A stretch of 64,000 bases of DNA, from the IMG/VR virus record IMGVR_UViG_3300023174_003694, positions 981 through 64,980 of that record. One strand, 5' to 3'. Under the pieces are notes generated by a model. That model worked only from the letters and a program-made list of their open reading frames with translations, searched no databases and was not told where the DNA came from. The DNA is from a virus. Below are positions 20,621 through 62,051 of the stretch, one piece after another; position 1 is the first letter of the stretch; every line of letters begins with the position of its first letter. The translations under genes and the position numbers were made by a program.

Positions 20621-20626
20621 AAACAA

Positions 20627-29167: not shown

Positions 29168-29481
29168 TATACTGTTTTGATTTAGATAATACTTTATGCA
29201 CTACCCTAGGCAATGATTATGAAAAATCAGAGCCAATATCTAATATGATTGTAAAGGTAAATGAATTATATGATGCTGGTCATACAATATTAATTTATAC
29301 AGCTCGTGGAATGTCTACTTATAAAGGTGATGTGGATGCTGTGTATGATGCATTTTATTTATTTACTAAAAACCAAATTAAATCTTGGGGTATTAAGCAT
29401 CATAAATTACAATTAGGTAAGCCTTCATATGATGTATTCATAGATGATAAGAATATGTTAATTAATGATTTTTTAGGTTAA
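29164..29481 (+). CDS. HAD-superfamily phosphatase (GmhB-like, short)
   Basis: MIYCFDLDNTLC is HAD motif I (DxDxT). IYTARG is motif II-like. FIDDK gives motif IV Asp. 105 aa. Confidence 0.5.
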   Translation: MIYCFDLDNTLCTTLGNDYEKSEPISNMIVKVNELYDAGHTILIYTARGMSTYKGDVDAVYDAFYLFTKNQIKSWGIKHHKLQLGKPSYDVFIDDKNMLINDFLG

Positions 29482-29519
29482 TCTAAAAGAATTTCTTATA
29501 TTAAATAAAATTATAAAGA

Positions 29520-30710
29520 ATGGAAAAAATAACATTTTGTATTCCTAGCAAATCTAATTTGCGTTATTTAAAAACATGTATTCCTTCAATTAGAAAGAAT
29601 GCGTTTAGACCTGATCACGATATTATTGTCTTTGTAGATTCAGATGAAGACGGTACTGTAGAGTGGTTAGAGCAAGTTAAAGATGAATACAATCTTTCTT
29701 ATTACGTTAATCCAAATTTAGGAAAATATCTATTTGGAATTGGAAAGGCATATGATTATTGTATTGAAAAATCTACAACAGATATTTTTATGATTTTTCA
29801 TGCGGATATGATGTTAGGTAAGAATGCAGATAAATTAGCATATGACCATTTAGTATATAAAACTGTGGTTTCTGCTACTAGAGTTGAACCGCCTTTACAT
29901 CCTAATAATGGAGAAAAGATTCTAATGGATTTTGGAATGTGGCCAGAGGAATTTAAAGAAGATGAGTTTGATGTATTTGTAGATACATTCAAAGAAGATA
30001 CTAAAGTAACTGACGGTGTATTTGCTCCTTGGATGATGTACAAAAAAGAATTTTTAGCAATAGGAGGTCATGATGAAAGAATGCATTCTTGCAGAGAAGA
30101 TTCTGACGTATTTAATAGATTAGAGTTGGCAGGATTTACATTTGTGCAACCTTGGAATTCTATGGTATATCATTTAACAGGTAGAGGTGCTGGAAGCTTT
30201 GGAGGGGATGAAGCGAGACACGCAGCTTGGCAAAATGATATGATTAGATCTACTAAAGAATTTATTCGCAAATGGGGAAGTAATGTTAAACATACAGCAT
30301 TAATGCATCCAATAATTATTCCAAAATATAATATTGCGTTTGTAGTTGATAATTGCACATTACAAGCTATCGAAGCTTTAGAGCCATGGTGTGATAGATT
30401 ATATATTAAAGGGTCTTTAGATTCTATAGCACATTTACAAGCTGACTATATTACCAAAGAAGCTGAGCATACTTCATTTAGCTTAGTTAAAAGGGTGTTA
30501 AGTGATATGCACAATGATGCTGATGGAGAAAATGATATTGTAGTTCGAATAGATGGTAGAACATTTGACGGAGACGATTTTATTTACATTCAACAGTTAT
30601 CTGAAATAATTAAAGAGTCTGGAACTCCTAATGCAACTTTTGAATTAGGTCATTTACTAATTACAATAAACTCAATGAATGAACTTCAAAACAATTTAAT
30701 CAATGTCTAA
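29520..30710 (+). CDS. glycosyltransferase family 2-like
   Basis: KITFCIPSKSNLRYLKTCIPSI is the GT2 N-terminal block. FVDSDEDG is DxD. Upstream CTTATATTAAATAAAA motif. Confidence 0.45.
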   Translation: MEKITFCIPSKSNLRYLKTCIPSIRKNAFRPDHDIIVFVDSDEDGTVEWLEQVKDEYNLSYYVNPNLGKYLFGIGKAYDYCIEKSTTDIFMIFHADMMLGKNADKLAYDHLVYKTVVSATRVEPPLHPNNGEKILMDFGMWPEEFKEDEFDVFVDTFKEDTKVTDGVFAPWMMYKKEFLAIGGHDERMHSCREDSDVFNRLELAGFTFVQPWNSMVYHLTGRGAGSFGGDEARHAAWQNDMIRSTKEFIRKWGSNVKHTALMHPIIIPKYNIAFVVDNCTLQAIEALEPWCDRLYIKGSLDSIAHLQADYITKEAEHTSFSLVKRVLSDMHNDADGENDIVVRIDGRTFDGDDFIYIQQLSEIIKESGTPNATFELGHLLITINSMNELQNNLINV

Positions 30711-31623
30711 AAGAATATTAGTTACGGGAGGGTTAGGCTTTGTAGGATCTAATTTAGTTGATATGTTAATTAGTCAAGGGCATCAAGTAGATGTAATTGA
30801 TAACTTATCTTCAGAGTCAAGTTCAAAAAAATATGCAAACCCAAAAGCAAATTATGAACTTAGAGATGTCAATGACATTTTACAAATTAAAAATTCAGTT
30901 GGAGTATTAGAAACTAGAACTCAATATGATGTAATTTATCATTTAGCAGCTGAAGCTAGAATTCAACCTTCTTTTGAAGATCCAATGAAATGGTTTCAAT
31001 CTAATATAATGGGCACTGCAGCTGTAATGGAATATGCAAGACTATCAAATTCAAAAGCTGTGGTATATGCAACGACTTCATCTAAAAACCATGGGTCTAA
31101 ATATATATCTCCTTACACTTATTCTAAAGTAGCTGGAGAAAATATATTAAGCACTTACAAATATTGTTATAAAATTAATTGCGCTTCAGCAACATTTTAT
31201 AATGTATATGGACCTAGAGAACCTGAAGTAGGAGAGTTTGCAACAGTAAGAGCAAAATTCCAAAGACAATTTGATAATAATGAACCTATGACTGTTGTAG
31301 GAGATGGTAATCAAACAAGAGACTTTACTCACGTAGATGATATTTGTCAAGGAATGATTGCAATTGCAGAACATTTATTAACCAAACCTCAGCACTCGAA
31401 AATTGTACAAAATTATGATTTAGGTAGAGGAGAGCCGATACCAATAATAGATGTTGCTTTGATGATTTGCAACTATGACCCTTCTAAAATTATGCATGTA
31501 CCTTTAAGAAAAAATGAAGGTAGAGATACTTTGTCATTGTGGCAAGATACACAAAGACAAATTGGTTGGAGAGCAACTAAAGATTTAAAAACATATATAA
31601 ACATAATCAACAATGGAGAATAA
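30703..31623 (+). CDS. NAD-dependent epimerase/dehydratase (extended SDR)
   Basis: ILVTGGLGFVGSNLV is the GxxGxxG Rossmann motif. YTYSK gives the YxxxK catalytic pair. Confidence 0.75.
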   Translation: MSKRILVTGGLGFVGSNLVDMLISQGHQVDVIDNLSSESSSKKYANPKANYELRDVNDILQIKNSVGVLETRTQYDVIYHLAAEARIQPSFEDPMKWFQSNIMGTAAVMEYARLSNSKAVVYATTSSKNHGSKYISPYTYSKVAGENILSTYKYCYKINCASATFYNVYGPREPEVGEFATVRAKFQRQFDNNEPMTVVGDGNQTRDFTHVDDICQGMIAIAEHLLTKPQHSKIVQNYDLGRGEPIPIIDVALMICNYDPSKIMHVPLRKNEGRDTLSLWQDTQRQIGWRATKDLKTYINIINNGE

Positions 31624-31921
31624 CAATTTTCATGATTTACGCAATACATATATTGACTTGCGTAACATGCCTTCAATCGAATTGTTAAATTTTGAAGGAC
31701 CTGTGCTAAAAGCAATTAAAGCTCCTTTTGGGTGTGTAGTAGTAGACCAATGGGACAAAACAGTTGCTATTTGTAATAAAGAACAGCTTCAAGATTTCCT
31801 TTCTGGAAAGACTGATATTACAGATTCCAATAACAAAATCTGGCACTATCCAGCAGAACATGAAGGAGCTAAGTCTAGAACCTCAAAATTAAATGCATTT
31901 ATTAATACAATGTCAATATGA
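31613..31921 (+). CDS. hypothetical protein
   Basis: 102-aa ORF. No motif. Confidence 0.3.
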   Translation: MENNNFHDLRNTYIDLRNMPSIELLNFEGPVLKAIKAPFGCVVVDQWDKTVAICNKEQLQDFLSGKTDITDSNNKIWHYPAEHEGAKSRTSKLNAFINTMSI

Positions 31922-32775
31922 AATCAAAATTAGGAGTAATTGGTCAAGGCTTTGTAGGAAATGCTGTGACTGAAGGAATGTCTCATTGTTATGAAATGAT
32001 AACGTATGACAAAGACCCAAATAAGAAATGTACAGAAAAATCACTATATGATGTGATTAATAAAACAGAAGTAGTATTTTTATGTGTACCTACTCCTATG
32101 TATAAATCAGGAGCTTGTGACTTGTCAATAGTACACAATGCAATGAAAGAAATTTCTGATTCATGTGAAGCATTGAAGAAACATGTTACTGTAGTTCTTA
32201 AATCTACAGTACCGCCAGGCGTCACTGAAACTCTTAATGAGTTGTATGGCAATCATATTGCTGTGGTATTCAACCCAGAATTCTTAACAGAAGCTAATGC
32301 AGTTGAAGATTATAAAAACCAAAATAGAATTATTGTAGGAGGCAATCGCCCAGAGTCTTCTCAAGTAAAACAAATATTTGCAAAAGCATTTCCTCAAGTT
32401 CCGATTATCAAAACATCTTCAACAATTGCAGAAATGGTTAAGTACGTAACTAATACGTTTTTAGCGACTAAAGTTTCATTTGCAAACGAAATGTATCAAA
32501 TTAGCCAAGCTCTAGATATTGATTATGACAAAGTAATTGAGTATGCGCGCTATGATGATAGATTAGGGCAATCACATTGGTCAGTGCCAGGCCCAGACGG
32601 AGATTTTGGATTTGGAGGTCACTGCTTTCCTAAAGATGTAGCAGCTTTAACTTATTTAGCCAAAGCATTAGGAGTAGATCCTATTATGCTAAATGGGACT
32701 GCATATAAAAATAATGATGTTCGAACTGACTTTGATTGGACTAAACAAATTGGGAGAGCAGTCTCTGAAGAATAA
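31918..32775 (+). CDS. UDP-glucose/GDP-mannose 6-dehydrogenase family protein, lacking the C-terminal UDP-binding domain
   Basis: LGVIGQGFVGNAV is the NAD-binding loop. NPEFLTEANAVEDY is the family signature NPEFLxEG. GGHCFPKD carries the catalytic Cys. Only 285 aa. Confidence 0.6.
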   Translation: MKSKLGVIGQGFVGNAVTEGMSHCYEMITYDKDPNKKCTEKSLYDVINKTEVVFLCVPTPMYKSGACDLSIVHNAMKEISDSCEALKKHVTVVLKSTVPPGVTETLNELYGNHIAVVFNPEFLTEANAVEDYKNQNRIIVGGNRPESSQVKQIFAKAFPQVPIIKTSSTIAEMVKYVTNTFLATKVSFANEMYQISQALDIDYDKVIEYARYDDRLGQSHWSVPGPDGDFGFGGHCFPKDVAALTYLAKALGVDPIMLNGTAYKNNDVRTDFDWTKQIGRAVSEE

Positions 32776-36784: not shown

Positions 36785-37072
36785 ATGACAAAAGAAGAAT
36801 TAACACAGATTATCAAAGAAGAAGTTGCTAAAGAATTGGCAAGTGCTAAATTAGTAAATGAAATTTATGATTTAGATCAAGTGAAATACAGTGCTTCTGT
36901 TCGAAAACAAGTTGATGATTTAGTTACTGTTATTCAAAAGACTCCTAACTTAAACAAGACAGCAGTCGCAGCTATACTAAATGACATCATTATGGCGCTT
37001 GGGTTAAATCGTACTCAAATTACTATGTATATGAATATGATTAAACAACAACGTCAAAAATATAACTTCTAA
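36785..37072 (+). CDS. leader-B family small protein (MTKEELTQIIKEEV N-terminus)
   Basis: N-terminus conforms to the MK.SEL..LI.EEV leader shared by 8 ORFs in this window. Confidence 0.4.
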   Translation: MTKEELTQIIKEEVAKELASAKLVNEIYDLDQVKYSASVRKQVDDLVTVIQKTPNLNKTAVAAILNDIIMALGLNRTQITMYMNMIKQQRQKYNF

Positions 37073-37371
37073 TGAAAAAGTCTGAACTAAGACAATTAAT
37101 TCGTGAAGAAGTAAAAAAAGCTATTAAAGAGTATGGATCAGAGTCTATGTATTACTCTGCCCCAGGAGGTTCCGAACAAATTCGACAAGTGTCAGTACCA
37201 AGAACACAGAAATTTACAGATATCGAAAGATGGAAGATAGTTGCTATGCAGTTAGGTGCTACTATACAAGATAGAGGTGACGATTTAATTGCAGTTATGC
37301 CAAACCAAGATGTATTAGGCACATTTGTTAAACCAAACAAAGTAGGTGAACTTTATTTATATACATCATAA
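37072..37371 (+). CDS. leader-B family small protein (MKKSELRQLIREEV)
   Basis: Canonical leader-B N-terminus. Translationally coupled to the flanking genes. Confidence 0.4.
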   Translation: MKKSELRQLIREEVKKAIKEYGSESMYYSAPGGSEQIRQVSVPRTQKFTDIERWKIVAMQLGATIQDRGDDLIAVMPNQDVLGTFVKPNKVGELYLYTS

Positions 37372-50963: not shown

Positions 50964-52001
50964 ATGAAATCAACTCAACTTAATATTTTACGAAACTTAA
51001 TTCGTGAAGAAGTTAAGAAGTCTTTGGCAGCCAAAGCTCCTATCAATGAAGCGTTTGCGTCTCCTATCTTAAGAAGACTTTTAGCTCAAAAAACTTATAG
51101 AGCGACTATCGCTCCAGCTTTCCAAAAAATGGCTCAAATTGCTTTAGATAAAGTAACAGACGCAGCTATTACTAAAATGGACCCAACTTCTGCTTACAAA
51201 GAACTTAAAAAAGCAGGTAGAAAAGTAGTCGTATTTTACGTTTCAGAAAAAGGAACTACTAACAGCTATGCAAAAGATGCTTATTATCAAAAAATTGAAC
51301 CAGGTACTGTGTTAGGACTTGCTTCAGGCGATAATAAATTCTTTGATGTAAATTACATTAGATACGGAGACGATAAAGGTAAGCGAACTATGAGTACTGG
51401 CGCAGGAGGAGACTCTATTGGTGTTCAAAAAACAGGATCAGGATATGGATCGACAGGATTATATAATGTTAAACGCGTAGCTGAAGTAGCTGACACTGCT
51501 TATGTAATTGATTTAGAAATGTTAAAAGATAAAGGATTAAGTACTTCATCTTTAGCATCACAAAGAGCAATGGCTAAAAGAGGAGCTATAGCATTTAAAT
51601 CAGATGAACAATTCAAAAGAGAAAATTTAGCTAGATATAAAGAAGCTTTGCAAGGTAGAGCAGCTAAAGGAGATGTAGACAGAATGGTGTTAGAAGCTAT
51701 TAATCAAGTAACTAAACAAATATCCGCAGCCGTTGCTGGTAAATCATTATCTCAATATGGAGATGTTCTTATTGGTAAAAGTCCAAAAGGTAGAGATGTA
51801 ACTGCATCAGATGCGTCTAATGCATTGAATAGATTACTTCAACAATTTGCTACATATTCATCTTCTAAAATAGAGTTAGAAAAATCTGCAGCTGGCGATC
51901 CTAATTATCGTTCTAGCTATGCAGAAACTAGATTAAAAGAAGCTGCGTTGGAAATTAAAACGCAATGTATCAAAATCAATAAATTAGATTACGGCTGGTA
52001 A
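50964..52001 (+). CDS. leader-B family protein (MKSTQLNILRNLIREEVKK)
   Basis: N-terminal leader-B motif with LIRE. 345 aa. The rest is Ala/Lys-rich. Confidence 0.4.
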   Translation: MKSTQLNILRNLIREEVKKSLAAKAPINEAFASPILRRLLAQKTYRATIAPAFQKMAQIALDKVTDAAITKMDPTSAYKELKKAGRKVVVFYVSEKGTTNSYAKDAYYQKIEPGTVLGLASGDNKFFDVNYIRYGDDKGKRTMSTGAGGDSIGVQKTGSGYGSTGLYNVKRVAEVADTAYVIDLEMLKDKGLSTSSLASQRAMAKRGAIAFKSDEQFKRENLARYKEALQGRAAKGDVDRMVLEAINQVTKQISAAVAGKSLSQYGDVLIGKSPKGRDVTASDASNALNRLLQQFATYSSSKIELEKSAAGDPNYRSSYAETRLKEAALEIKTQCIKINKLDYGW

Positions 52002-52010
52002 TCATAACTA

Positions 52011-52343
52011 ATGAAAAGACTCATAAACGATCATCTTAAGTATATCATCAGACAGGAAATTAAAAATGCCTTGACTGAAAATAAAATGCAAATTGGGAAT
52101 GGGCAATATTCTGTGCGTGTAATTACGGATAGAAAAGGATTGGCATTGTCATTTTTGCCTGATTCTAAAACTTTAGATATTCCTGTAAATACTCAGGTAG
52201 ATGCTATTAATGATTTACTTAAGAAAAAGCTAGGTGCTCTAGGCAAAGCTTTTTATTTTGAATCAGGTCATGACGCTGCAGGAAGAATATACAGATTAAA
52301 CCCGGATTTGTTCACTGATGTTCTAACTAAATTACTATCTTGA
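52011..52343 (+). CDS. hypothetical protein with a degenerate leader-B-like N-terminus (MKRLINDHLKYIIRQEI)
   Basis: IIRQE loosely resembles the leader. Confidence 0.3.
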   Translation: MKRLINDHLKYIIRQEIKNALTENKMQIGNGQYSVRVITDRKGLALSFLPDSKTLDIPVNTQVDAINDLLKKKLGALGKAFYFESGHDAAGRIYRLNPDLFTDVLTKLLS

Positions 52344-52386
52344 TATAAGTGGAAGATCCAACAGTTCCGATAACATACCTTCAAAT

Positions 52387-52421
52387 AGGTATATTCGTTT
52401 TGGGAGGTATATTATTCGTTT
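52387..52421 (+). repeat. short tandem direct repeat AGGTATATT(AT)TCGTTT x2 in an intergenic region
   Basis: aggtatattcgttt-tggg-aggtatattattcgttt, immediately upstream of gene 52451. Confidence 0.4.
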
Positions 52422-52450
52422 ATGAATGGCGAGTTAATAAAAAATAAATT

Positions 52451-52990
52451 ATGAAAGTATCAGAATTAAGACAATTAATAAAGGAACAGGTAACGCAAGT
52501 ACTTGCAGAATCAATCAATGAAGCTTTCGGCGTAGTTGATATTAAAGATATTCACTTTGAAACCGATCCAGTTAAAGCAGAAACTCTTAAAAAAGCTTAT
52601 GGTAAATCAACCGGAGAGATGTTTCCTTCTAAACAAATAGAGTCTGCAAATTATGCTTTAGCAAAATTTAGAAAGCAAATTAAATATGACAATGGTAAAT
52701 CAGGTCCAGCTGGGTCTACTGATGTATTTATTCCAGGTTCTTCAATGGCAGCATTTTCTACAATGGGAGATGGGCCTCATAAAAAAGCAGTTAGTCGTAA
52801 GACATGGAACCAAAGAGAATATGACAAATGGATTAAATCAATGGCTGGAGATGGCGGTGCAGAAAATGCTTACGATATGGCACAAAATGCTAAACATGAA
52901 CCAGGCTTAATTGATTGGGTAAAAAGAAATGCAGTAAATGGCGAAACTCCATTGGAAAGAATTCAATACGATATCGAAGCTTATACATAA
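52451..52990 (+). CDS. leader-B family protein (MKVSELRQLIKEQV)
   Basis: Canonical leader. Followed by a terminator hairpin at 52999..53024. Confidence 0.4.
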   Translation: MKVSELRQLIKEQVTQVLAESINEAFGVVDIKDIHFETDPVKAETLKKAYGKSTGEMFPSKQIESANYALAKFRKQIKYDNGKSGPAGSTDVFIPGSSMAAFSTMGDGPHKKAVSRKTWNQREYDKWIKSMAGDGGAENAYDMAQNAKHEPGLIDWVKRNAVNGETPLERIQYDIEAYT

Positions 52991-53893: not shown

Positions 53894-54397
53894 ATGTCAT
53901 TATTAGACTCCTTAAAGAATTTAAGACCTGCAGAAAGGTTCAAAGCCTTTTTGATAGTAGTCTTGTTATCATCAATCACTCCATTAGCTACTATATACTT
54001 AAAAACTGATGATTGTAAAGGAATTTCAACTCAGTATGAAAGTTTAGTTGATAATCATACTAAATTAATGGAAACTAATAATAAAATAATTCAAGATAAT
54101 ACTTCGAAAACAGAAGCTATCAGAAGATTAGATTCTATTTTAGTTGCATTTTCTCAACAAAAAGCAATCGTGGCAACTCGAGTAGAGCAAATACCAGTTA
54201 AACAACAAAATCAAGTTGTAGTAAATGATGCTGGAATGGGAGGAACGGGAGAAGTTGCATTAGCTAAAAGTGTAATTGAAGAACCAGAACCTAAAGTATT
54301 AATTGTTAAATCGACTACAACGACAGAATTAAATAAAACACAAAAAGATTTAGTTCAGTGTGCATTGAAAATCACAAACGAATACAAAAATGATTAA
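53894..54397 (+). CDS. membrane-anchored hypothetical protein; first gene of the leader-A array
   Basis: TM FKAFLIVVLLSSITPLATIYL. Its stop codon (GAT TAA) lies inside the ATGATTAAAC leader-coding start of the next gene. Confidence 0.35.
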   Translation: MSLLDSLKNLRPAERFKAFLIVVLLSSITPLATIYLKTDDCKGISTQYESLVDNHTKLMETNNKIIQDNTSKTEAIRRLDSILVAFSQQKAIVATRVEQIPVKQQNQVVVNDAGMGGTGEVALAKSVIEEPEPKVLIVKSTTTTELNKTQKDLVQCALKITNEYKND

Positions 54398-55208
54398 ACT
54401 TAAAGATATATTAACAGAATTAAAGTCTATACAAAACATAGATAAGGTTGATACTACTAAACCATATTCCATAATATGGAACAATGGAGATTTAGTTGCT
54501 ATGTCTCCGGGTGCTATGCCTCCTATGTCTTTAGGTAAGATGTTTCCGATGATGGTTGAGCCTTCTAAGAAAATAGTTAAGCTGCAAGACTATGACGATT
54601 GGTCTAGCTTCAAAGACATTTTGAAAATGCAACAAGCTGTTAAAGATATGCTTAAAGCTAAATTAATTGATATGACCTGGAAGATTGATATTCCAATGTC
54701 TGATGTAAAAAAGAATATTGGTTCATTGAAAATTGCAGAGTTTTTAAAATACAATGCTACATTTTCAAACACAATACCAAAAGCATTTCACGGAACCACT
54801 GATAAAGAATTAGCGTCTATTCAAAAGATAGGTATTGCTCCTCCGTCTAAAACAGATCAAGAAATTCTAAAATGGGATCAATTCTATGGAGAAGATTCAA
54901 AAGATAAAACATATTGGTCAATTGATTTTGATCGTGCTAAGTATTATGCGGAGCATGCTGTTGGATTATATGATAGAATGGGAATAAAAGCAAAGCCTAT
55001 TGTAATTGAAATAAACAATTGGCCAATGTCAATAACAACTGCAGACGATGACTTTCAATCTAATATGAGTATGATTCAAATGTTAGCTGTAATGCAACAT
55101 GGTAAGTTAGATAACACATCAGCTATTCAATCAATTAGAATGACTTCGCAATTTGCTATTAAAGGAAGAGTGCCAGCTTCTAAAATCGTAAAAATATATA
55201 AAGTATGA
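54390..55208 (+). CDS. leader-A family protein (MIKLKDILTE); weak diphtheria-toxin-like H-G-T motif
   Basis: N-terminal MIKLKDILTEL. AFHGTTDKELASIQKIGI resembles the ADP-ribosyltransferase H-Y-E class YHGT block. YY dyad at AKYYAEH. Low confidence for the fold. Confidence 0.3.
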   Translation: MIKLKDILTELKSIQNIDKVDTTKPYSIIWNNGDLVAMSPGAMPPMSLGKMFPMMVEPSKKIVKLQDYDDWSSFKDILKMQQAVKDMLKAKLIDMTWKIDIPMSDVKKNIGSLKIAEFLKYNATFSNTIPKAFHGTTDKELASIQKIGIAPPSKTDQEILKWDQFYGEDSKDKTYWSIDFDRAKYYAEHAVGLYDRMGIKAKPIVIEINNWPMSITTADDDFQSNMSMIQMLAVMQHGKLDNTSAIQSIRMTSQFAIKGRVPASKIVKIYKV

Positions 55209-55792
55209 TAAAACTTAAAGACTTACTTTCTGAAGCTTGTTGGAAAGGATATAAACAAATTGGAATGAAAAAGAAAGGTAAAAGACAAGTGCCTAATTGC
55301 GTTCCAGTAGATGAAGAAATAGTAACAGAAGTGGGAGAAGGTTCTGTTAAACCTTATAAATTTGAAGAAGTTGATCAAGAAGGTAGATTTGTATACATTC
55401 GATTTACTACAGATAAAGGTACTGAATATGAAGTAGATTTAGAATCCATGGAATATCCAGACCCAGACGATGAAGATATGAATGTAGCTGCTATGGGAAT
55501 TGAATTTTTAGCAAAGCAAAAAGGAAAAGACGGATATTCTTCTAAAATAACTACTAATGAAGGAGATATCTTCAAAGTTATGTCTACAGTGTCTGATATA
55601 ATAAAAAAATATCTTAAAAAGCGTATATTCTCGGATGTTGAATATTTAATATACACTCCGTCAAAGAAGCCTGATCAAGGTTCTTCTAAAAACCAAAGAG
55701 ATATGTTGTATAGAAAGTTCATTACACATAACTTTTCAGGAGCTAAATTTATTACCGATTCAAATGGCTGGATTGTCGCTAAAATAAAATAA
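55205..55792 (+). CDS. leader-A family protein (MIKLKDLLSEA)
   Basis: Leader plus ATGA coupling to the upstream gene. Acidic stretch DPDDEDM. Confidence 0.35.
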   Translation: MIKLKDLLSEACWKGYKQIGMKKKGKRQVPNCVPVDEEIVTEVGEGSVKPYKFEEVDQEGRFVYIRFTTDKGTEYEVDLESMEYPDPDDEDMNVAAMGIEFLAKQKGKDGYSSKITTNEGDIFKVMSTVSDIIKKYLKKRIFSDVEYLIYTPSKKPDQGSSKNQRDMLYRKFITHNFSGAKFITDSNGWIVAKIK

Positions 55793-55793
55793 G

Positions 55794-56552
55794 ATGATTA
55801 AATTAAAAGATTTATTAAACGAGTTAGACTTCGGCAAATTTCCATTTACAGACCCAGACGCAGTACAATTAGGTATGATGGAGAAAATGTCTTTGGAAAG
55901 ATTAATTGACAAATACAAATATGTCACAGAACCTAATACCAAAGATGAGCAGAAACTCTTGAAAGATTTAAGTAAGTATTTCGAAAATGAAGAGAATACA
56001 GTGCAAGTTTCAGGATTGAAAGCTCTTTTAGCCGTTAAATCTAAATTTCCGGGTATACTTGACCCTGCTGAAGATGAAGATAATTCTTATGTATATCGAG
56101 GCACTTCAATGCCAATATCAGAGATCTTGAAATACAATTGGGATACATTTCAAAATTCATATAATGGAACTTCATGTGAATGTAAAGGTCCTGTAATGAT
56201 GTCTGCTAAAGGAGACAGAGGGTTTTCTTCATTTTCAGTATTTGAAGACACTGCTATTGACTTTGCTTATGAGCAATACATAGATTTTCCAGCATACTAC
56301 CGTCAAAAGAATTTAGTGCCTGTAGTTACCTCTGTATACATTTCAGAGCCTAACGCTTTATTTAATCCTAAATTTTCTAAAATATTTAACATACACGGTA
56401 ATGAAGGAGAAGTTTTATTAATAGGAACAAAATATAAATCTCCTAAAACTACATTGAAGTTTTTAGATGATTTATTTGATAACGTTAAAGACGCGGGAGA
56501 GTTAGGACCTGAATGGCAAGCTCTAGCTAAACATCTTAAAATTGAATTGTAA
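55794..56552 (+). CDS. leader-A family putative mono-ADP-ribosyltransferase (R-S-E class, T4 Alt/Mod-like)
   Basis: MIKLKDLLNEL leader. Arg motif YVYRGTSMP, then STS motif GFSSFSVF about 43 aa later, then EGE catalytic motif HGNEGEVLLIG about 57 aa after that. Order and spacing fit R-S-EXE ARTs. Confidence 0.5.
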   Translation: MIKLKDLLNELDFGKFPFTDPDAVQLGMMEKMSLERLIDKYKYVTEPNTKDEQKLLKDLSKYFENEENTVQVSGLKALLAVKSKFPGILDPAEDEDNSYVYRGTSMPISEILKYNWDTFQNSYNGTSCECKGPVMMSAKGDRGFSSFSVFEDTAIDFAYEQYIDFPAYYRQKNLVPVVTSVYISEPNALFNPKFSKIFNIHGNEGEVLLIGTKYKSPKTTLKFLDDLFDNVKDAGELGPEWQALAKHLKIEL

Positions 56553-56643
56553 TGGTATATTTTTTACTTTGGATGGCATATGAATTTATAAGACCAAAAT
56601 TAATTTGGTTATGGTATTTCTTAATTAAAAAAGGACAAGGAGA

Positions 56644-57915
56644 ATGATAAAACTTAAAAATTTACTTTTAGAAGTATATAAATTAGACGATTCTGCATTA
56701 AATGAAAACGCATTAACTGATTTATTTAAAAGTGTAAGAACTTATGGATTAGTAAATGCGGTATTAAGAAATGCAGGAACTCCTTTAGGCACCTCCTTAC
56801 TTAATGGATTTAAGACAGGAGCCGCATACAAACCAAATAAAAAAGGAGAAGTGCTTTTTAGTAAAGATGTGTCTTGGTACGACCCAGATAAAGTTCCAGG
56901 CCTAGCTAAACAAGTAGATAATGTTGAGCGTGAGTATGAAAAAGCATGGACAGGTCTTATGAATGTAAAGAAAAAATTATCTAAAAATTTAGGAACTGTA
57001 GATGTAGAAAAGATTAAATCTGGCGATGGAAAGTCTCAGATAACAAAAACTCCAGATATAATTATCAATCACAAAGAGTATCTTGAAGCTAATCTAATAT
57101 TAATGAAAGCAGAAGGTAGCAAAATATATTATTTACACAAGCTACAATTAGCTATGGGTGCTAAAGATAAAGAAAACCCGGAAGGGCTATCTGTACCTAT
57201 ATGGAATGAAAAAGGTGACTGGGTCGGCAACTCTTATGATAAAAAAGACTTATACAAAAAATATCCTAAAAATATAGTAGATGTTGCGTTTACAGACAAA
57301 CCTAAGCCTATGGGTACCAGAATTAAAGATATACAAATTTGGATCGCTGATCTAGAGAAGCAAATTAAAACTGGTGAGAAATTAACTCGAGGTGAAGAAG
57401 CTGAGGTATTAGCACAATACTTTATGCCTCCAGGAGAGGTTGATAAAATAAAAGATAAAAAAGAAGATACTTCTGCTAAGCCTTTGAAAAGTATGAGTGA
57501 TGAAGAGTTGTATAAGTCTTTAGATGATGCTAATGAGAAGCGAATGCATTGGAATGGATATAAAACAGAAAAACCCGAGCAAGCTGCTAAAGCGTTTTTA
57601 GTTTATGCTGAACATAAGTTAGAAAAGTTAATGAGAGCTAGGAAAAAAGAAAAAAATCCAGAGCAATCATTCTTTGACAATACAAGTGCTATGAAGAGGC
57701 TAGGAATTAAATCAACTAAAGACATTAAAGAGTATCCGGATTTAGAAGCAAAGATAGGTATGTCAAGTGAAGACTTATTAAATAGATACAATAAGTATGT
57801 AAATGACATGTATCGTGCTGACGAAGAGTTAGCTGGATGGCAAGATGAAATTAAAAAGAAAACGGCAGATTATAATCAAAAATATGAAACTCCATATAAA
57901 TCAATTTTAAAATGA
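56644..57915 (+). CDS. leader-A family protein (MIKLKNLLLEV), 423 aa
   Basis: Leader. No other motif recognised. Confidence 0.35.
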   Translation: MIKLKNLLLEVYKLDDSALNENALTDLFKSVRTYGLVNAVLRNAGTPLGTSLLNGFKTGAAYKPNKKGEVLFSKDVSWYDPDKVPGLAKQVDNVEREYEKAWTGLMNVKKKLSKNLGTVDVEKIKSGDGKSQITKTPDIIINHKEYLEANLILMKAEGSKIYYLHKLQLAMGAKDKENPEGLSVPIWNEKGDWVGNSYDKKDLYKKYPKNIVDVAFTDKPKPMGTRIKDIQIWIADLEKQIKTGEKLTRGEEAEVLAQYFMPPGEVDKIKDKKEDTSAKPLKSMSDEELYKSLDDANEKRMHWNGYKTEKPEQAAKAFLVYAEHKLEKLMRARKKEKNPEQSFFDNTSAMKRLGIKSTKDIKEYPDLEAKIGMSSEDLLNRYNKYVNDMYRADEELAGWQDEIKKKTADYNQKYETPYKSILK

Positions 57916-58244
57916 TAAAGCTTAAAAATATATTATCGGAAGCAGAGCCTGTAAAAGAAACAAAGGAATTTGAAGAATTTGCAGAAACTCGTATGAATGG
58001 AGCAGAGAAGATTGCAGACACTGCTCAAGAAAAAGGCGGATTAGCTTTACTAACTTGGCATCATTTTAAAGTAAAAGCTCCTTATTATAAGAAAGCTTCT
58101 GAAGGAGAGTTTGATGTAGAGCAAGCAAAAAAAGAATTTGAAGAAACTTACAAAAAGATATCTTTAAACATGACTCAAATTGAATTTCAAAGAGAGGTAG
58201 GTCGTTTAGAAGTTCTTGGAGAGCTATTAATCAAACAAAAATGA
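57912..58244 (+). CDS. leader-A family small protein (MIKLKNILSEA)
   Basis: Leader. ATGA overlap with the upstream gene. Confidence 0.35.
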   Translation: MIKLKNILSEAEPVKETKEFEEFAETRMNGAEKIADTAQEKGGLALLTWHHFKVKAPYYKKASEGEFDVEQAKKEFEETYKKISLNMTQIEFQREVGRLEVLGELLIKQK

Positions 58245-58762
58245 CAAGAGTAAATTTAGATATATTTCAAAAATCAGAGACTGATTTAATATTACGACTT
58301 AGCGATGAGCTTTTAAGTAGTAACTTCAATGCTGGTAATACAGTAATTATTTCAGTATCAGCTGATTATTCTAATATAATTAGTCAAATATTAAGACATT
58401 CGTTAAGTTATAAAGGAGAAATTTGTGATGGATTTAGTATAGACGTGCCTTATCCAGATGAAGTATGGGATTCTACTTACTTACGTGAGTTAGAATCATT
58501 AATGAGTTTATACAGATATAAATTAAATAATAAAAAAATACTATTAGTTGAAGCCGGCGTTATCAGAGGTTCTAATTACAAGTTTATTATAGATTATTTC
58601 AAAAACAATTTACGAATAACTCAAGATATTTATACGTTAGCATTATATGAAAATAGTAGTTCTAAATTTGAATCTGATTTTATAGGAGAATATTATGATG
58701 ATGAAACTCAAGATTTAACATTTTGGTGGGAACGATATAACAAACATTGGAATAATGATTAA
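58241..58762 (+). CDS. hypothetical protein without leader (weak PRTase-like KILLVEAGVIRGSNY)
   Basis: No leader. Its stop is embedded in the next gene's ATGATTAAAC start. Confidence 0.3.
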   Translation: MTRVNLDIFQKSETDLILRLSDELLSSNFNAGNTVIISVSADYSNIISQILRHSLSYKGEICDGFSIDVPYPDEVWDSTYLRELESLMSLYRYKLNNKKILLVEAGVIRGSNYKFIIDYFKNNLRITQDIYTLALYENSSSKFESDFIGEYYDDETQDLTFWWERYNKHWNND

Positions 58763-59909
58763 ACTTAAAGATTTATTAAAGGAATTAGAGTCTAAAGACA
58801 ATTATTACATTGCTAATAATATCATGGAACCTAGATTAGCAGTGAGAAAATATTTCAATGCTAATAAAGACTCTTTGGAAGTACTTATGGATCAAGATAG
58901 ATGGAATGAAGTATATCAAATAATCTTTAAAGAATTTCCACAATTTGAACAACATATACTATCCACTGCAATTAATAGTGAAGCTTTAGATGCAGGATGG
59001 CTAACTAAACAAGTACCTGTAAATACAAAATTATCTTTGGATTCTAATAGTGAAGTAGGAGAAATTCAAACTACAGTTTCTGCTTGGGTAGCTAAAAATA
59101 AAAATAAATTAATAAAGCTAGCAGACGATGATGATTATACAAAATTCTATCAAGCTGCTAGAGATCAATTTCCTGGAGTTCAAGACGATAAACTTTTATT
59201 TGCTTTAAAAGTAGCCGCTGTAGAACATGATATTCATTATGATGTATTGACAGACGGAGTAATCAAACTTAAAGATTTACTAAAAGAAAGCTATAAACTA
59301 TCACTGAAAGATTTAGGAGATGACAATTATAAAGTTATAGCTATTGATAATGGAAAGAATGTAGGAGAATTACAATTTATAAAAAGTAAATTTAAACCTG
59401 TATTGAAAGGAGCTTCAATTGTAGTAGATCCTAACTATCAAAGACAGGGAATTGGATCTGCTATGTATGTATTTGCAGAAAAGCAATTGAAATTAAAATT
59501 TGTTAAAACTGATGATGTTTTAACTGCTAGTGGTAAAGCACTTTGGAATGATCCAAATAGAAAATTTGGTCTTAAAGAATCAGCTCATGATGAAGCATTG
59601 TCTTACACTGAAGAAAAGGCTCTTGAGTTAGCACATAAAAATTGGAGTACATTTACTGGTAAAGTATGTAATTCAGGATTTTGTGATATCTATGCATCTA
59701 AATTATCTAAATTACTTCCAGGCTCTAAACAATGGGACACGGAAGAACAGGGTCCGTCAGGCACTCTTGGTCATGTATGGGTAGAGTTCAAAGGTAAATT
59801 CTATGACGCGGAGACACCTGACGGAGTACGAGATTGGAAAGATCTACCATGGATGCAGGAGTTTTACAAAGCTAAAAAGCAATATCCTAGCGATATTAAA
59901 CAACTATAA
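58755..59909 (+). CDS. leader-A family fusion protein with a second internal leader and a GNAT-like acetyltransferase motif
   Basis: N-terminal MIKLKDLLKEL. Internal in-frame GVIKLKDLLKES at about nt 59255..59290. Downstream VVDPNYQRQGIGSAMYVFAEK is the GNAT motif A (Q/RxxGxG/A). Confidence 0.45.
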   Translation: MIKLKDLLKELESKDNYYIANNIMEPRLAVRKYFNANKDSLEVLMDQDRWNEVYQIIFKEFPQFEQHILSTAINSEALDAGWLTKQVPVNTKLSLDSNSEVGEIQTTVSAWVAKNKNKLIKLADDDDYTKFYQAARDQFPGVQDDKLLFALKVAAVEHDIHYDVLTDGVIKLKDLLKESYKLSLKDLGDDNYKVIAIDNGKNVGELQFIKSKFKPVLKGASIVVDPNYQRQGIGSAMYVFAEKQLKLKFVKTDDVLTASGKALWNDPNRKFGLKESAHDEALSYTEEKALELAHKNWSTFTGKVCNSGFCDIYASKLSKLLPGSKQWDTEEQGPSGTLGHVWVEFKGKFYDAETPDGVRDWKDLPWMQEFYKAKKQYPSDIKQL

Positions 59910-59989: not shown

Positions 59990-61594
59990 ATGAAAAAATC
60001 GGAATTAAGAGAGCTAGTCAGAGAGCAAGTTCGCAATTTAATCAAAGAGGCTAACATATCTCAAGAAGCCTATACAATTCATAACATAACAAAATGTGGG
60101 CAAGATGCCGCTCAAAATTTCATTGATGACAATAAATTAGACGGTAAAAAGTTAGCTGCTTATGTTAGACAACACTCAAACTCAAAAGAAAAGTATGAAG
60201 TTCGAGATATTATTGCTGGTACAGGGGTAGGAGCTAACGTTAGTTTTAAAGCTAGATTCCTTAAACAATTTAAAGAATCTGTAATTAAAGAAGCTAAAGA
60301 ATATACTTTCACTTTTGATTACAATACAGATCCTGATGATATCGAATACATTGAAAATTTATTGAAAAAAGCAAGAGTAAATGCTTATGCTGAGCAAGGA
60401 ACTTTCGATGATGAAATGGTAATCAAAGCAGGAGATGCAATTGAATTACGTAAGGCTAAAAAAGCAATTGAAGCTGATGGATTTCAAATCAACGAAGCTT
60501 CTTTAAAAGAAGCTAACGAGTTATCTTCATATAAAATAGGAGATCAAATCAAATTTTCTAACGGGGAGATTTGGAAAGTAGCTAAACCAGGAGTGAAAGG
60601 AGATAAGATATTTTTAGCTCCATTCAATTCTATTGCAAAGAAAGGACATATTTCATTAGCAATTGAATTCAGTCAAGATGAATTAAACGATACAGTGACA
60701 GAATCTATAAACGAAGCTGCTAACGATATATCATACATCAACAAAGCTAGAGCAAAATCTTCTTTGGAACAAATTAAAAAAGGAAAACGTTCTGATGGTA
60801 TGGGTAAATTCGATGCTAAAGTATATGCTATCAAAGGAACTCAAGAGATTGAATTAACAGATCCTTCAGACTTAGCTAAATATTCCACAGGATACAAATA
60901 TGGATTGAAATCAGAATCTATTAATGAAGCATTAATAGGACCTTTTGCAATTTCAAACTCTACTCCAGATGACGAGTTGATAGCGATGTATCACGGAGCG
61001 TTAGACGGATATGCTAATTACAAACCAGGAATGAAATTTAAAAAATCAGACTATAAATTAGCTTATCAAACTATAGAGAAAATACTTCAGAAAAAAGGAG
61101 TTGCTATTACAGAAGCCGATGACCCAGAAGCTGGAGAAGCAGCTCCATACGGTTCAGGATATTCTGAAGTAAATGAAGACGCGGGAATGGTTATTGATGT
61201 AGCAATGGGCGTTGCAGTAGGCTTAATGGGTTTATGGGCATTGGTTCAAAGTGCTCCTTTAGTAGGTAGAGTATTTGGGGATGCAGCAGAGTATTTAGCT
61301 AATAAATCTGAAAAGAAAGCTAAATTAGCATTGAAAAATCAAAGAAAAGAAACGATAGCTCCTATCATTGCCAAATTTAAAAATGACAAGCAGTTAGCTG
61401 ATATGTATCAAAACTTAACTCCATATAGCGCAGCAGCTAAATTAGGTAGCAGTCAAGCTGGACTTAAAGCACAACAAGGAAGAGTGAACCAATTAACAAA
61501 AATTGGTAAATACATTAAATCTAAATTAACTCCTGAAGAATTAGTATATTTCAGAGACATATCTGCAATGTTAAGAGATGGAGACTTAAAATAA
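59990..61594 (+). CDS. leader-B family large protein (MKKSELRELVREQV) with C-terminal TM segment
   Basis: Leader. Hydrophobic VIDVAMGVAVGLMGLWALV near the C-terminus. Promoter-motif copy (59962..59986) and an ATATTTATATTAAATAA motif upstream. Confidence 0.4.
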   Translation: MKKSELRELVREQVRNLIKEANISQEAYTIHNITKCGQDAAQNFIDDNKLDGKKLAAYVRQHSNSKEKYEVRDIIAGTGVGANVSFKARFLKQFKESVIKEAKEYTFTFDYNTDPDDIEYIENLLKKARVNAYAEQGTFDDEMVIKAGDAIELRKAKKAIEADGFQINEASLKEANELSSYKIGDQIKFSNGEIWKVAKPGVKGDKIFLAPFNSIAKKGHISLAIEFSQDELNDTVTESINEAANDISYINKARAKSSLEQIKKGKRSDGMGKFDAKVYAIKGTQEIELTDPSDLAKYSTGYKYGLKSESINEALIGPFAISNSTPDDELIAMYHGALDGYANYKPGMKFKKSDYKLAYQTIEKILQKKGVAITEADDPEAGEAAPYGSGYSEVNEDAGMVIDVAMGVAVGLMGLWALVQSAPLVGRVFGDAAEYLANKSEKKAKLALKNQRKETIAPIIAKFKNDKQLADMYQNLTPYSAAAKLGSSQAGLKAQQGRVNQLTKIGKYIKSKLTPEELVYFRDISAMLRDGDLK

Positions 61595-61600
61595 TCTATC

Positions 61601-61816
61601 ATGAAAAATACAGAATTAAAAGCTCTTATAAGAGAAGAAGTTAGAAAAGCGCTAAATGAAGACATTGATATTCACAATGATGAGTCTGCAATGAAAGCTC
61701 TAGAAGATATCGCAGTTAACATGACAAAATGGAAAGGTTCTGAAGGAGCTCATTATACAGATTTACTAGAGAAAGTAATAGACTTTTTGAAATACGGTAA
61801 CCATAGAACGAATTAA
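61601..61816 (+). CDS. leader-B family small protein (MKNTELKALIREEV)
   Basis: Leader. Confidence 0.35.
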   Translation: MKNTELKALIREEVRKALNEDIDIHNDESAMKALEDIAVNMTKWKGSEGAHYTDLLEKVIDFLKYGNHRTN

Positions 61817-61817
61817 A

Positions 61818-62051
61818 ATGAAAAAATCAGAATTAAGATCTCTTGTAAGAGAATGTGTATGTGATACTTTAAAGGAAGGCACTATGGTAGACTTCGCTAA
61901 CTATTATAGAGCTTATGACTCAGATGTAAAAGAAGCTGCAAGAGCTTTAGATAAAATAATTGAGGAATCAGGAGCAGGATCGGAAGAACTATTTGATGCT
62001 ATTACTGATTTAGTTGATGCAGTTAGAGCAGATCAAGACGCTGAAATATAA
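61818..62051 (+). CDS. leader-B family small protein (MKKSELRSLVRECV)
   Basis: Leader. Followed by a 10-bp-stem terminator at 62063..62090. Confidence 0.35.
   Translation: MKKSELRSLVRECVCDTLKEGTMVDFANYYRAYDSDVKEAARALDKIIEESGAGSEELFDAITDLVDAVRADQDAEI

What the first reader, a model, noticed from the sequence alone, without database searches (positions are those of the whole stretch)
55794..56552. Leader-bearing putative R-S-E ADP-ribosyltransferase (Alt-like injected effector)
Behind the MIKLKDLLNE leader the protein has an Arg motif (YVYRGTSMP), an STS motif (GFSSFSVF) about 43 residues later, and a Q/E-x-E motif (NEGEVLLIG) about 57 residues after that. Order and spacing are those of cholera-toxin/C3/T4 Alt-ModA-ModB mono-ADP-ribosyltransferases. 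T4 Alt is itself a capsid-packaged, gp21-processed ART that modifies host RNA polymerase on injection. An analogous but sequence-divergent enzyme here would support the effector-array interpretation and would be a new phage ART.
Basis: partly seen in the sequence, partly recalled or inferred. Interest (0 to 1): 0.7.

Follow-up and report, generated by a model that had tools for sequence, protein, structure and literature searches.

The report
Leader-tagged Mod-like phage ADP-ribosyltransferase
This gene from an uncultured T4-like phage encodes a previously undescribed ADP-ribosyltransferase, a distant relative of phage T4's ModA/ModB enzymes, and its 10-residue N-terminal tag looks like the signal T4 uses to load proteins into the capsid for injection into the host.

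Summary

The MIKLKDLLNE leader ends in L-x-E, the T4 gp21 protease site, and is 10 residues long like the T4 capsid-targeting sequence. Six unrelated neighbouring genes carry it. The leader type varies with the genome, not with the cargo. In other T4-like viral contigs the same leader heads a conserved gene directly downstream of the gp21 homologue (74 of 80 loci).

Best reading: an arginine-directed mono-ART, packaged in the capsid, trimmed by the prohead protease and injected with the DNA. The fold and catalytic motifs are shown computationally. Packaging, injection and the target are inferred. I file it as a new family of a known kind, of moderate interest.

The parts
55794..56552 (+). Complete gene for the 252-aa precursor (leader, N-terminal extension, helical subdomain, ART core, C-terminal helices).
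   Evidence: ORF list and sequence. An identical protein is called on 4 metagenome contigs. There are 14 close homologues and 158 family representatives at E<=0.001 in the 50%-identity cluster library.
55794..55823 (+). Leader or propeptide MIKLKDLLNE (residues 1-10). L8-x-E10 is the predicted prohead-protease cleavage site; cleavage would leave a mature protein starting at L11.
   Evidence: Six ORFs in the window share this leader. Codons vary synonymously and the upstream DNA is not conserved. Family-wide, position 8 is L/I/V in 108 of 113 sequences and position 10 is E in 106 of 117, while positions 1-7 and 9 are not conserved. T4 gp21 cleaves after L/I-x-E, and the capsid-targeting sequence is the first 10 residues of IPIII (PMC9026906).
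55824..55874 (+). Conserved extended segment directly after the cleavage site (residues 11-27, LDFGKFPFTDPD...; family consensus DYGxxLFADP). Its role is unknown.
   Evidence: G14 is present in 121 of 125 sequences and D20 in 116 of 124. The segment is modelled as coil with pLDDT of about 87-93. It lies outside the region aligned to ModA/ModB.
55875..56063 (+). N-terminal helical subdomain (residues 28-90) carrying the near-invariant E46-P-N-T49-x-D-E52 motif and the K82-x-K-F-P-x-I-L-D-P91 motif.
   Evidence: Helices at 28-40, 50-64, 72-80 and 86-89 in the model. Residues 42 onward align with the ModA/ModB N-terminal region, where EPNTKDEQ pairs with E-x-FTDFEQ.
56085..56459 (+). ART catalytic core (residues 98-222). 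R102 is in strand 99-107. S146-F-S148 is in strand 144-148 and is followed by helix 151-164. E204-G-E206 is at the end of the loop entering strand 206-210.
56463..56549 (+). C-terminal helical tail (residues 224-252).
   Evidence: Helices at 224-233 and 239-247. W241, L244 and H247-L-K249 are invariant only among the close homologues.
56552..56647 (+). A 31-aa hydrophobic small ORF (MVYFLLWMAYEFIRPKLIWLWYFLIKKGQGE). It overlaps the ART stop codon (TAATG) and the next gene's start (ATGA). It has no leader, and its function and any link to the ART are unknown.
   Evidence: It is conserved at the protein level, with synonymous and conservative changes, directly after the 252/253-aa ART gene in L001 and L004. 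It is called as a gene in L001, L002 and L003.
54390..55792 (+). Two upstream genes with the same leader. 54390..55208 (272 aa) has unknown function. 55205..55792 (195 aa) carries a CWKGYKQ...PNCVP motif and a sub-threshold DUF6934 match.
56644..58244 (+). Two downstream genes with the same leader: 56644..57915 (423 aa) and 57912..58244 (110 aa). Flavobacterium phage immuto keeps the cargo of the second gene but gives it a different leader, MRLLELLRE.
58755..59909 (+). The sixth gene with the MIKLK leader, a 384-aa protein with a GNAT acetyltransferase domain.
   Evidence: Acetyltransf_7 scores 29.3 bits (cut-off 27) and Acetyltransf_1 scores 27.9 bits (cut-off 20.7). The leader is shown.
59990..62051 (+). 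Three genes with a second, 12-residue leader class MK(K/N)(S/T)EL(R/K)xL(I/V)RE, which also ends in [IV]-x-E: 59990, 61601 and 61818. The ORFs at 37072 and 52451 have the same pattern; 50964 has a longer variant (MKSTQLNILRNLIRE).
   Evidence: The same class appears on at least five genes in relative L004. Similar leaders sit beside gp21 homologues in other contigs.

Best explanation
The gene encodes a precursor of a mono-ADP-ribosyltransferase of the R-S-E clade. It belongs to a new, metagenome-only family that is distantly related to T4 ModA/ModB.

Proposed mechanism:
1. The 252-aa precursor is made during infection.
2. Its 10-residue N-terminal leader MIKLKDLLNE directs it into the scaffolding core of the assembling prohead, as the T4 capsid-targeting sequence does for IPI-III.
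3. The phage's gp21-type prohead protease cuts after E10 (L8-x-E10). This leaves a 242-aa mature enzyme inside the DNA-filled head.
4. The enzyme is ejected with the DNA into the next host cell.
5. There it binds NAD+ in a cleft formed by R102, S146-x-S148 and E204-x-E206 and transfers ADP-ribose to host proteins. The target residue is most likely arginine, because the E-x-E form of the third motif goes with arginine specificity. NAD-capped RNA, the alternative ModB substrate, is also possible. The effect would be to reprogram or disarm the host at the very start of infection.

The fold, the motif placement, the conservation and the ModA/ModB relationship are shown computationally. Packaging, cleavage, injection, arginine specificity and the identity of the target are inferred.
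For: ART identity:
- The AlphaFold2 model built on 83 diverse homologues has pLDDT 93.1 and pTM 0.88.
- R102, S146, E204 and E206 are the only invariant columns across 83 members. In the wider set R102 is present in 163 of 163 sequences, E204 in 134 of 134 and E206 in 133 of 134.
- These residues lie on strand 99-107, on strand 144-148 followed by a helix, and on the loop entering strand 206-210.
- hhalign against a ModA/ModB alignment gives 85.7% probability, E 5.5e-6 and 146 aligned columns. R, S-x-S and E-x-E align in register. Reversed and 30 column-shuffled controls reach at most score 17.5 and 0.7% probability.
- R102 pairs with ModB R73. The R73A mutation inactivates ModB, and ModB modifies arginines (PMC10468400).

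Leader as a capsid address:
- It is 10 residues long and ends in L-x-E. That matches the T4 capsid-targeting sequence length and the gp21 site L/I-x-E (PMC9026906; PMC10229621).
- It resembles the N-termini of T4 gp24 (MAKINELLRE), gp22 (MLKEQLIAE) and gp21 (MNEPQLLIE).
- Six adjacent genes share the leader. Where function can be assigned, their cargo proteins are unrelated: the ART, a GNAT and a DUF6934-like protein.
- Conservation is at the peptide level, not the DNA level.
- The leader type follows the genome, not the cargo. In L008 neighbours of a family member share MKHIKLFEEHLNE-type leaders. In L010 they share MKTLRQLLLE-type leaders, on cargo that includes an ART-PolyVal protein and a kinase-like protein.
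- Phage immuto keeps the cargo of ORF 57912 at 80% DNA identity but has the leader MRLLELLRE.
- A scan of IMG/VR with the leader pattern hit at least 120 stretches. 24 of these contain a gp21 homologue, and in 18 of the 24 a leader-bearing ORF starts within 1.1 kb downstream of it.
- A conserved 136-aa leader-bearing protein lies directly downstream of gp21 in 74 of 80 loci and upstream of gp23 in 47 of the 47 loci where gp23 was found.
- The window is from a T4-like phage: it has a gp43-type polymerase, a sliding clamp and a clamp loader.
- Head-packaged ARTs are an established theme in myoviruses (PMC9503650).
Against: - There is no significant match to any Pfam ART family, including PF26816 (ModA/ModB) and PF03496 (Alt). 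There is no PHROG match and no PDB sequence match.
- The ModA/ModB link rests on a thin 8-sequence template profile.
- No gp21 homologue, head gene or virion data could be obtained for this phage itself.
- No promoter evidence for late expression was found.
- ModA and ModB, the closest relatives, are early cytoplasmic enzymes and are not packaged.
- No family member occurs in 50,697 isolate phage genomes, so no proteomics can be borrowed from a cultured relative.
Confidence: 0.62

Rival explanations
1. It is an active ModA/ModB-like ART that works in the cytoplasm of the cell where it is made, as T4 ModA and ModB do. It is not packaged. On this reading the shared N-terminal decapeptide serves another purpose, such as a translation-initiation or regulatory element, a degradation or localisation tag, or a relic of cassette recombination.
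For: The nearest detectable relatives, ModA and ModB, are not virion proteins (PMC9503650). The array lies among non-structural genes, and no late-promoter signal was found. No head genes or protease of this phage could be examined.
Against: The leader is conserved as a peptide, with synonymous codon changes and no conserved upstream DNA. Its family-wide conserved positions are exactly the L and E of the gp21 site. The identical leader heads a conserved gene between gp21 and gp23 in 74 of 80 T4-like loci. The leader type is swapped when cargo moves between phages. T4 alt also lies outside the head gene cluster, beside the ligase gene.
Confidence: 0.17
2. It is an ART-fold enzyme whose real chemistry is not protein arginine mono-ADP-ribosylation. 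It could be an NAD+ glycohydrolase that depletes or reshapes NAD-derived signals, a nucleic-acid ADP-ribosyltransferase, or mainly an RNAylating enzyme like ModB. It may be packaged or not.
Against: The strict R / S-x-S/T / E-x-E signature and the best structural matches (Vis, LT, ArtA, pertussis toxin S1, Tre1, C3) are those of protein-modifying R-S-E toxins. From general knowledge of the clade, E-x-E goes with arginine targets, whereas the DNA-modifying pierisin and Scabin types carry Q-x-E.
Confidence: 0.15
3. It is a catalytically dead, ART-derived internal head protein with a structural, DNA-condensing or decoy role.
For: Many packaged internal proteins are not enzymes, for example T4 IPI, which is a restriction-enzyme inhibitor (PMC3012670).
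Against: The only invariant positions across a family with 20% mean column identity are the four catalytic residues. That is the signature of selection for catalysis.
Confidence: 0.04

Closest known systems
T4 ModA / ModB (Pfam PF26816, 'Mod' family of the R-S-E clade)
   Same: Both are small single-domain phage ARTs of about 200-250 aa. Both have an N-terminal helical region followed by an R / S-x-S / E-x-E core. Profile-profile alignment covers 146 columns with all three motifs in register, and EPNTKDEQ pairs with E-x-FTDFEQ (85.7% probability; controls). R102 aligns with the catalytic R73 of ModB.
   Different: No member of the new family reaches the PF26816 model. The new family has a cleavable-looking 10-residue leader and a conserved DYGxxLFADP segment that ModA and ModB lack. 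It sits in an array of leader-bearing genes. ModA and ModB are early cytoplasmic enzymes.
T4 Alt (PF03496, Alt/VIP2 family)
   Same: Alt is an R-S-E arginine ART of a T4-type phage. It is carried in the capsid, trimmed by gp21 and injected with the DNA (annotation; PMC9026906). Its N-terminus MELITELFDE is also 10 residues long and ends in E. Both ExE regions read N-E-x-E-V-[IL]-L.
   Different: No sequence or profile relationship was detectable. Alt is 682 aa with a large N-terminal domain, and it is processed at both ends. The resemblance is in how the enzyme is delivered, not in family membership.
T4 internal proteins IPI, IPII and IPIII and their capsid-targeting sequence
   Same: Both have a 10-residue N-terminal propeptide ending in L/I-x-E. 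Unrelated cargo proteins share it. The genes lie in variable cassette arrays outside the head gene cluster.
   Different: The leader sequence differs: MIKLKDLLxE here against MKTYQEFIAE in T4 (the T4 sequence is quoted from memory). The number of cargo proteins is much larger. A second leader class coexists in the same genome. The cargo proteins here include enzymes.
Vis toxin of Vibrio splendidus (PDB 4xzj) and the cholera toxin / LT / pertussis toxin group
   Different: There is no detectable sequence similarity. These are secreted bacterial toxins, not phage virion cargo.
ARTs of phage polyvalent proteins (ART-PolyVal; Iyer et al. 2017 and 2022)
   Same: These are predicted head-packaged, injected ART effectors of myoviruses (PMC9503650). 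One member of the new family (P0147, 1310 aa) is embedded between Imm5-like and NT5C domains in a polyvalent-style protein. An ART-PolyVal gene with the local leader type neighbours a family member in L010.
   Different: Polyvalent proteins fuse many domains into one giant polypeptide. Here each cargo protein is a separate small gene addressed by its own leader.

Membership tests
ART superfamily, R-S-E clade | ART fold (split beta-sheet core forming an NAD cleft) | tested here: met
   [not shown]
ART superfamily, R-S-E clade | Catalytic Arg on the first core strand, preceded by an aromatic residue | tested here: met
   R102 is present in 163 of 163 sequences. Y/W/F101 is present in 158 of 163. 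R102 lies in strand 99-107 and aligns with ModB R73.
ART superfamily, R-S-E clade | S-x-S/T motif on the next core strand, followed by a helix | tested here: met
   S146 is present in 144 of 152 sequences and S/T148 in 145 of 152. The motif lies in strand 144-148, followed by helix 151-164.
ART superfamily, R-S-E clade | [QE]-x-E motif at the end of the ARTT loop | tested here: met
   E204 is present in 134 of 134 sequences and E206 in 133 of 134. The motif lies at the entry to strand 206-210.
ART superfamily, R-S-E clade | NAD+-dependent ADP-ribosyl transfer | not testable with these tools
   This needs a biochemical assay.
T4 ModA/ModB family (PF26816) | Match to the family's sequence model | tested here: not met
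   None of the 83 members matched PF26816 at E<=0.1, although the ModB homologues in the protein collection carry that domain.
T4 ModA/ModB family (PF26816) | Profile-level homology with the catalytic motifs in register | tested here: met
   hhalign of A2 against A3 gives 85.7% probability, E 5.5e-6 and 146 aligned columns. Reversed and shuffled controls reach at most 0.7% probability. I read this as a distant sister family, not membership.
T4 Alt / VIP2 family (PF03496) | Sequence or profile similarity to the Alt catalytic domain | tested here: not met
   hhalign probabilities are 0.2-1.6%. One of the 83 members touches PF03496, at E 0.097. The Alt profile was thin, with 5 sequences.
T4 Alt / VIP2 family (PF03496) | Large N-terminal domain ahead of the ART domain (Alt is 682 aa) | tested here: not met
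   The whole protein is 252 aa.
T4-type capsid-targeted internal proteins | N-terminal propeptide of about 10 residues ending in L/I-x-E | tested here: met
   MIKLKDLLNE has L8 and E10. Family-wide, position 8 is L/I/V in 108 of 113 sequences and position 10 is E in 106 of 117. The criterion comes from PMC9026906.
T4-type capsid-targeted internal proteins | The same propeptide on unrelated proteins of one phage, and different propeptides in different phages | tested here: met
   Six genes in the window share the leader. L008, L010 and immuto have genome-specific leader types on related or identical cargo.
T4-type capsid-targeted internal proteins | The phage encodes a gp21-type prohead protease and a scaffolding core | not testable with these tools
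   Neither is in the window, and the contigs I could reach end too early. Indirect support: in other T4-like contigs the same leader sits directly downstream of gp21 (74 of 80 loci).
T4-type capsid-targeted internal proteins | Presence in the virion in cleaved form, and ejection into the host | not testable with these tools
   This needs virion proteomics or N-terminal sequencing. No cultured phage carries the family.

The most novel reading that the evidence does not exclude
The ART may be one cargo of a large, modular capsid-addressing system in environmental T4-like phages. In this system short decapeptide or dodecapeptide 'zip codes' ending in [LIV]-x-E are swapped between phages and attached to many unrelated proteins. 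A capped sample of 120 viral-contig stretches gave 94 cargo clusters, including a Mod-like ART; a GNAT and kinase-like and ART-PolyVal proteins carry leaders in the window and in L010. Each virion would then inject a customised enzyme cocktail. The two coexisting leader classes in this genome could specify different packaging routes or copy numbers. In that setting a packaged Mod-type enzyme would ADP-ribosylate or RNAylate host proteins before any phage gene is expressed.
Probability: 0.35. Interest if true: 0.75.

Novelty: new member of a known kind. Interest (0 to 1): 0.55.

Why it matters
Phage ARTs such as Alt, ModA and ModB are the textbook example of host takeover by protein modification. 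ModB has recently been shown to attach RNA to proteins.

This finding adds a sizeable family that no Pfam or PHROG model covers and that no cultured phage carries: 158 representatives in the 50%-identity cluster library. It combines a Mod-type catalytic core with an internal-protein-type capsid address.

If the inferred delivery is right, environmental T4-like phages inject Mod-like enzymes directly. The 10-residue leader would then be a simple sequence handle for finding injected effectors in metagenomes, and possibly for loading foreign proteins into non-model phages.

The family's invariant residues give an immediate mutagenesis plan.

Tried and rejected
Searches that found nothing:
- Pfam and PHROGs on the protein gave no usable match.
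- A Pfam scan of 83 family members gave only one SidE_mART hit (7e-4) and one ADPrib_exo_Tox hit (0.097).
- PDB sequence searches with two profiles gave nothing at E<=10.
- tblastn of the protein and of two divergent members against 50,697 isolate phage genomes gave no match.
- Foldseek against BFVD viral models gave no convincing match: the best was E 3e-4 with a TM-score of only 0.28, and T4 Alt and Mod were not retrieved.
- No tRNA or Rfam family was found in the window.
- A literature search for capsid-targeting sequences in marine or metagenomic T4-like phages found nothing relevant.

Tests with a negative result:
- Direct homology to Alt was rejected.
- Single-sequence hhalign to ModA or ModB was weak (2.5% and 14.7%). 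It became meaningful only with a ModA/ModB alignment.
- The T4 late-promoter motif TATAAATA and the sigma-70 and terminator scans gave no enrichment, so there is no timing information.
- hhalign of the neighbouring 272-aa leader protein (54390) against the ART profile gave 8.6%, which is not significant. The PDB search for it gave nothing.
- The post-gp21 leader protein and four other leader proteins gave no PHROG match.

Attempts that failed technically:
- I tried to reach this phage's own head module and gp21.
With A1 it returned only one locus.

Full report
**Observation.** The ORF 55794..56552 (+) is real, starts with ATG and encodes 252 aa beginning MIKLKDLLNE. YVYRGTSMP begins at residue 99 (R102), GFSSFSVF at 143 (S146, S148) and NEGEVLLIG at 203 (E204, E206). 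R102 to S146 is 44 residues and S146 to E204 is 58. A loose R...S-x-S/T...E-x-E pattern matches no other of the 74 + strand ORFs of at least 100 aa in the window. It matches 0.14% of shuffles of the protein.

**The family.** The protein has no usable Pfam or PHROG match and no match in PDB sequences. It has no match in 50,697 isolate phage genomes, whether queried itself or through two divergent relatives. It does belong to a substantial metagenomic family. There are 14 close homologues, and an exhaustive profile search returned 158 representatives at E<=0.001 from the 50%-identity cluster library. In an HMM alignment of these hits, R102 is present in 163 of 163 sequences, S146 in 144 of 152, S/T148 in 145 of 152, E204 in 134 of 134 and E206 in 133 of 134. 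In a MAFFT alignment of 83 diverse members (mean column identity 20%) the only invariant columns are R102, S146, E204 and E206.

**Structure.** A first model built from 15 close homologues was mediocre (pLDDT 63). It already retrieved Vis, KptA, ArtA, LT and pertussis toxin S1. With the 83-sequence alignment the model reached pLDDT 93.1 and pTM 0.88.

- R102 lies in strand 99-107. S146-x-S148 lies in strand 144-148, followed by helix 151-164. E204-x-E206 lies at the entry to strand 206-210. This is the canonical R-S-E layout.
- Foldseek against BFVD viral models found nothing convincing.

**Which ART family.**

- hhalign of the family profile against T4 Alt found nothing. This held for the full-length protein, the catalytic domain alone and a five-sequence Alt profile.
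- Against single ModA and ModB sequences the scores were weak, but the R and S motifs already aligned.
- Against an eight-sequence ModA/ModB alignment the match rose to 85.7% probability, E 5.5e-6 and 146 columns. R, S-x-S and E-x-E aligned in register. The N-terminal helical motif EPNTKDEQ aligned with ModB's E-x-FTDFEQ.
- Reversed and 30 column-shuffled controls never exceeded score 17.5 or 0.7% probability.
- R102 pairs with ModB R73. The R73A mutation abolishes ModB activity, and ModB modifies arginines (PMC10468400).
- None of the 83 members reaches the Pfam ModA/ModB model PF26816.

The family is best described as a distant sister of the 'Mod' family of the R-S-E clade. It is not a member of that family, and it is not an Alt homologue.

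**The leader.** Six ORFs start with MIKLK[DN][LI]LxE: 54390, 55205, 55794, 56644, 57912 and 58755.

- Their codons differ synonymously and the upstream DNA is not conserved. The peptide is what is conserved.
- The leader is 10 residues long and ends in L-x-E. The T4 capsid-targeting sequence is the first 10 residues of IPIII, with processing determinants at residues 8 and 10, and gp21 cleaves after L/I-x-E (PMC9026906; PMC10229621).
- T4's own gp24 begins MAKINELLRE, gp22 begins MLKEQLIAE and gp21 begins MNEPQLLIE.
- Across the ART family only the L and the E of the leader are conserved. Position 8 is L/I/V in 108 of 113 sequences and position 10 is E in 106 of 117. The rest of the leader varies by lineage.

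**Leader type follows the genome, not the cargo.**

- In L008 a family member and its neighbours all carry MKHIKLFEEHLNE-type leaders.
- In L010 they carry MKTLRQLLLE-type leaders. The cargo there includes a second family member, an ART-PolyVal protein and a zeta/AAA_33 kinase-like protein.
- ORF 57912 has an 80% DNA-identical counterpart in the cultured Flavobacterium phage immuto, but there the leader is MRLLELLRE.
- Relatives of the window (L001, L004) carry two paralogues of the ART in the array, and their neighbouring cassettes differ.

**Link to head assembly.**

- 43 of these contain T4 gp17, gp18, gp20, gp21 or gp23 homologues. 24 contain gp21, and in 18 of the 24 a leader-bearing ORF starts within 1.1 kb downstream of gp21 on the same strand.
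- A conserved 136-aa leader-bearing protein was then found in 80 loci. The gp21 homologue lies directly upstream in 74 of them. The gp23 homologue lies downstream in all 47 loci where it was seen.
- The same loci contain a gp21 homologue starting MNKGLLIE and a scaffold-like protein starting MANSKLLKE. They also contain proteins with leaders like the window's second class.
- The 170 leader-bearing ORFs in the sampled loci fall into 94 cargo clusters. Four ORFs belong to the ART family.

**Context.** The window is from a T4-like phage. It has a gp43-type polymerase, a sliding clamp and a clamp loader, with the polymerase 41% identical to that of Microcystis phage Mel-JY01. G+C content is 31.7%. 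Its own gp21 and head genes are not in the window, and I could not reach them.

**Mechanism and rivals.** The best-supported account has five steps. The leader targets the precursor to the prohead core. A gp21-type protease trims it after E10. The 242-aa mature enzyme stays in the head. It is injected with the DNA. It then uses NAD+ to modify host proteins, probably on arginine because of the E-x-E motif and the ModB parallel. The ART identity is well supported (about 0.9). Delivery is circumstantial (about 0.65 to 0.7). The target is unknown.

The rivals are:
- a non-packaged cytoplasmic Mod-like enzyme (0.17);
- a different chemistry on the same fold, such as NADase activity, a nucleic-acid target or mainly RNAylation (0.15);
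- an inactive structural protein (0.04), which the invariance of the catalytic residues contradicts.

**Novelty.** Head-packaged phage ARTs and capsid-targeting-sequence-addressed internal proteins are both established (PMC9503650; PMC3012670). This is therefore a new family of a known kind. What is new is the family itself, which is absent from Pfam, PHROGs and isolate genomes. Also new are the pairing of a Mod-type core with an internal-protein-type leader and the scale of the surrounding leader system.

Noticed in passing
window 36785-37371, 50964-52990, 59990-62051: A second leader class, MK(K/N/V)(S/T)EL(R/K)xL(I/V)(R/K)E, is 12 residues long and also ends in [IV]-x-E. It is clear on the ORFs at 37072, 52451, 59990, 61601 and 61818. 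Looser variants occur at 36785, 50964 and 52011. Two leader classes therefore coexist in one genome. Relative L004 has at least five genes of this class, and similar leaders sit beside gp21 homologues in other contigs.
   Followed up: partly
window 56552-56647: A 31-aa hydrophobic ORF (MVYFLLWMAYEFIRPKLIWLWYFLIKKGQGE) is wedged between the ART gene and the next gene, with overlapping stop and start codons on both sides. It is conserved with synonymous changes in L001 and L004, always just after the 252/253-aa ART paralogue. It could be a small membrane peptide. Any link to the ART is unknown.
   Followed up: partly
window 57912-58244; L133 5959-6273 (Flavobacterium phage vB_FspM_immuto_2-6A): The 110-aa leader-bearing ORF is 80% identical at the DNA level to an immuto gene annotated, probably wrongly, as tRNA(Ile2) agmatinyltransferase. 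The cargo is conserved but the leader is replaced (MIKLKNILSE against MRLLELLRE). Immuto also has MKKSQLRQIIKE-type genes nearby. This gives a cultured model for testing leader cleavage and hints at a Bacteroidota host.
   Followed up: partly
window 58755-59909: The sixth MIKLK-leader gene encodes a 384-aa protein with a GNAT acetyltransferase domain above the Pfam cut-offs. It is a second putative enzyme cargo in the array.
   Followed up: partly
window 54390-55208: The 272-aa leader protein contains FHGTT followed about 40 residues later by YWSIDFDRAKYYAEHA. This loosely recalls an H-Y-E type ART or a peptidase: the Pfam GtgE match is E 0.026, and hhalign to the ART profile gives only 8.6%.
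   Followed up: partly
window 2859, 15875, 34458, 36469, 46941, 59924 (+ strand): The exact motif TATTTATATTA occurs six times. All six are on the coding strand and all are in intergenic DNA roughly 10-320 nt upstream of a start codon, five of them within about 130 nt. This looks like a phage promoter or regulatory element. None lies directly upstream of the MIKLK array, and one precedes the class-B gene at 59990.
   Followed up: partly
window 55238-55320 (ORF 55205..55792): The CWKGYKQIGMKKKGKRQVPNCVP segment just after the leader matches cyanophage S-RIM12 hypothetical proteins at 82% DNA identity. It also matches several PHROGs of unknown function at internal positions. It appears to be a widely shared short module.
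   Followed up: no
[not shown]
   Followed up: partly
P0147 (1310 aa family member, metagenomic): In this protein the ART domain is embedded between Imm5-like and NT5C-like domains, which is a polyvalent-protein-style architecture.
   Followed up: no
window 8807-10420 and 15911-32775: The phage encodes a full-length GroEL-type chaperonin (PHROG E 1e-177). It also has a long block of genes that includes glycosyltransferases. The block reading is based on only a few annotated ORFs.
   Followed up: no
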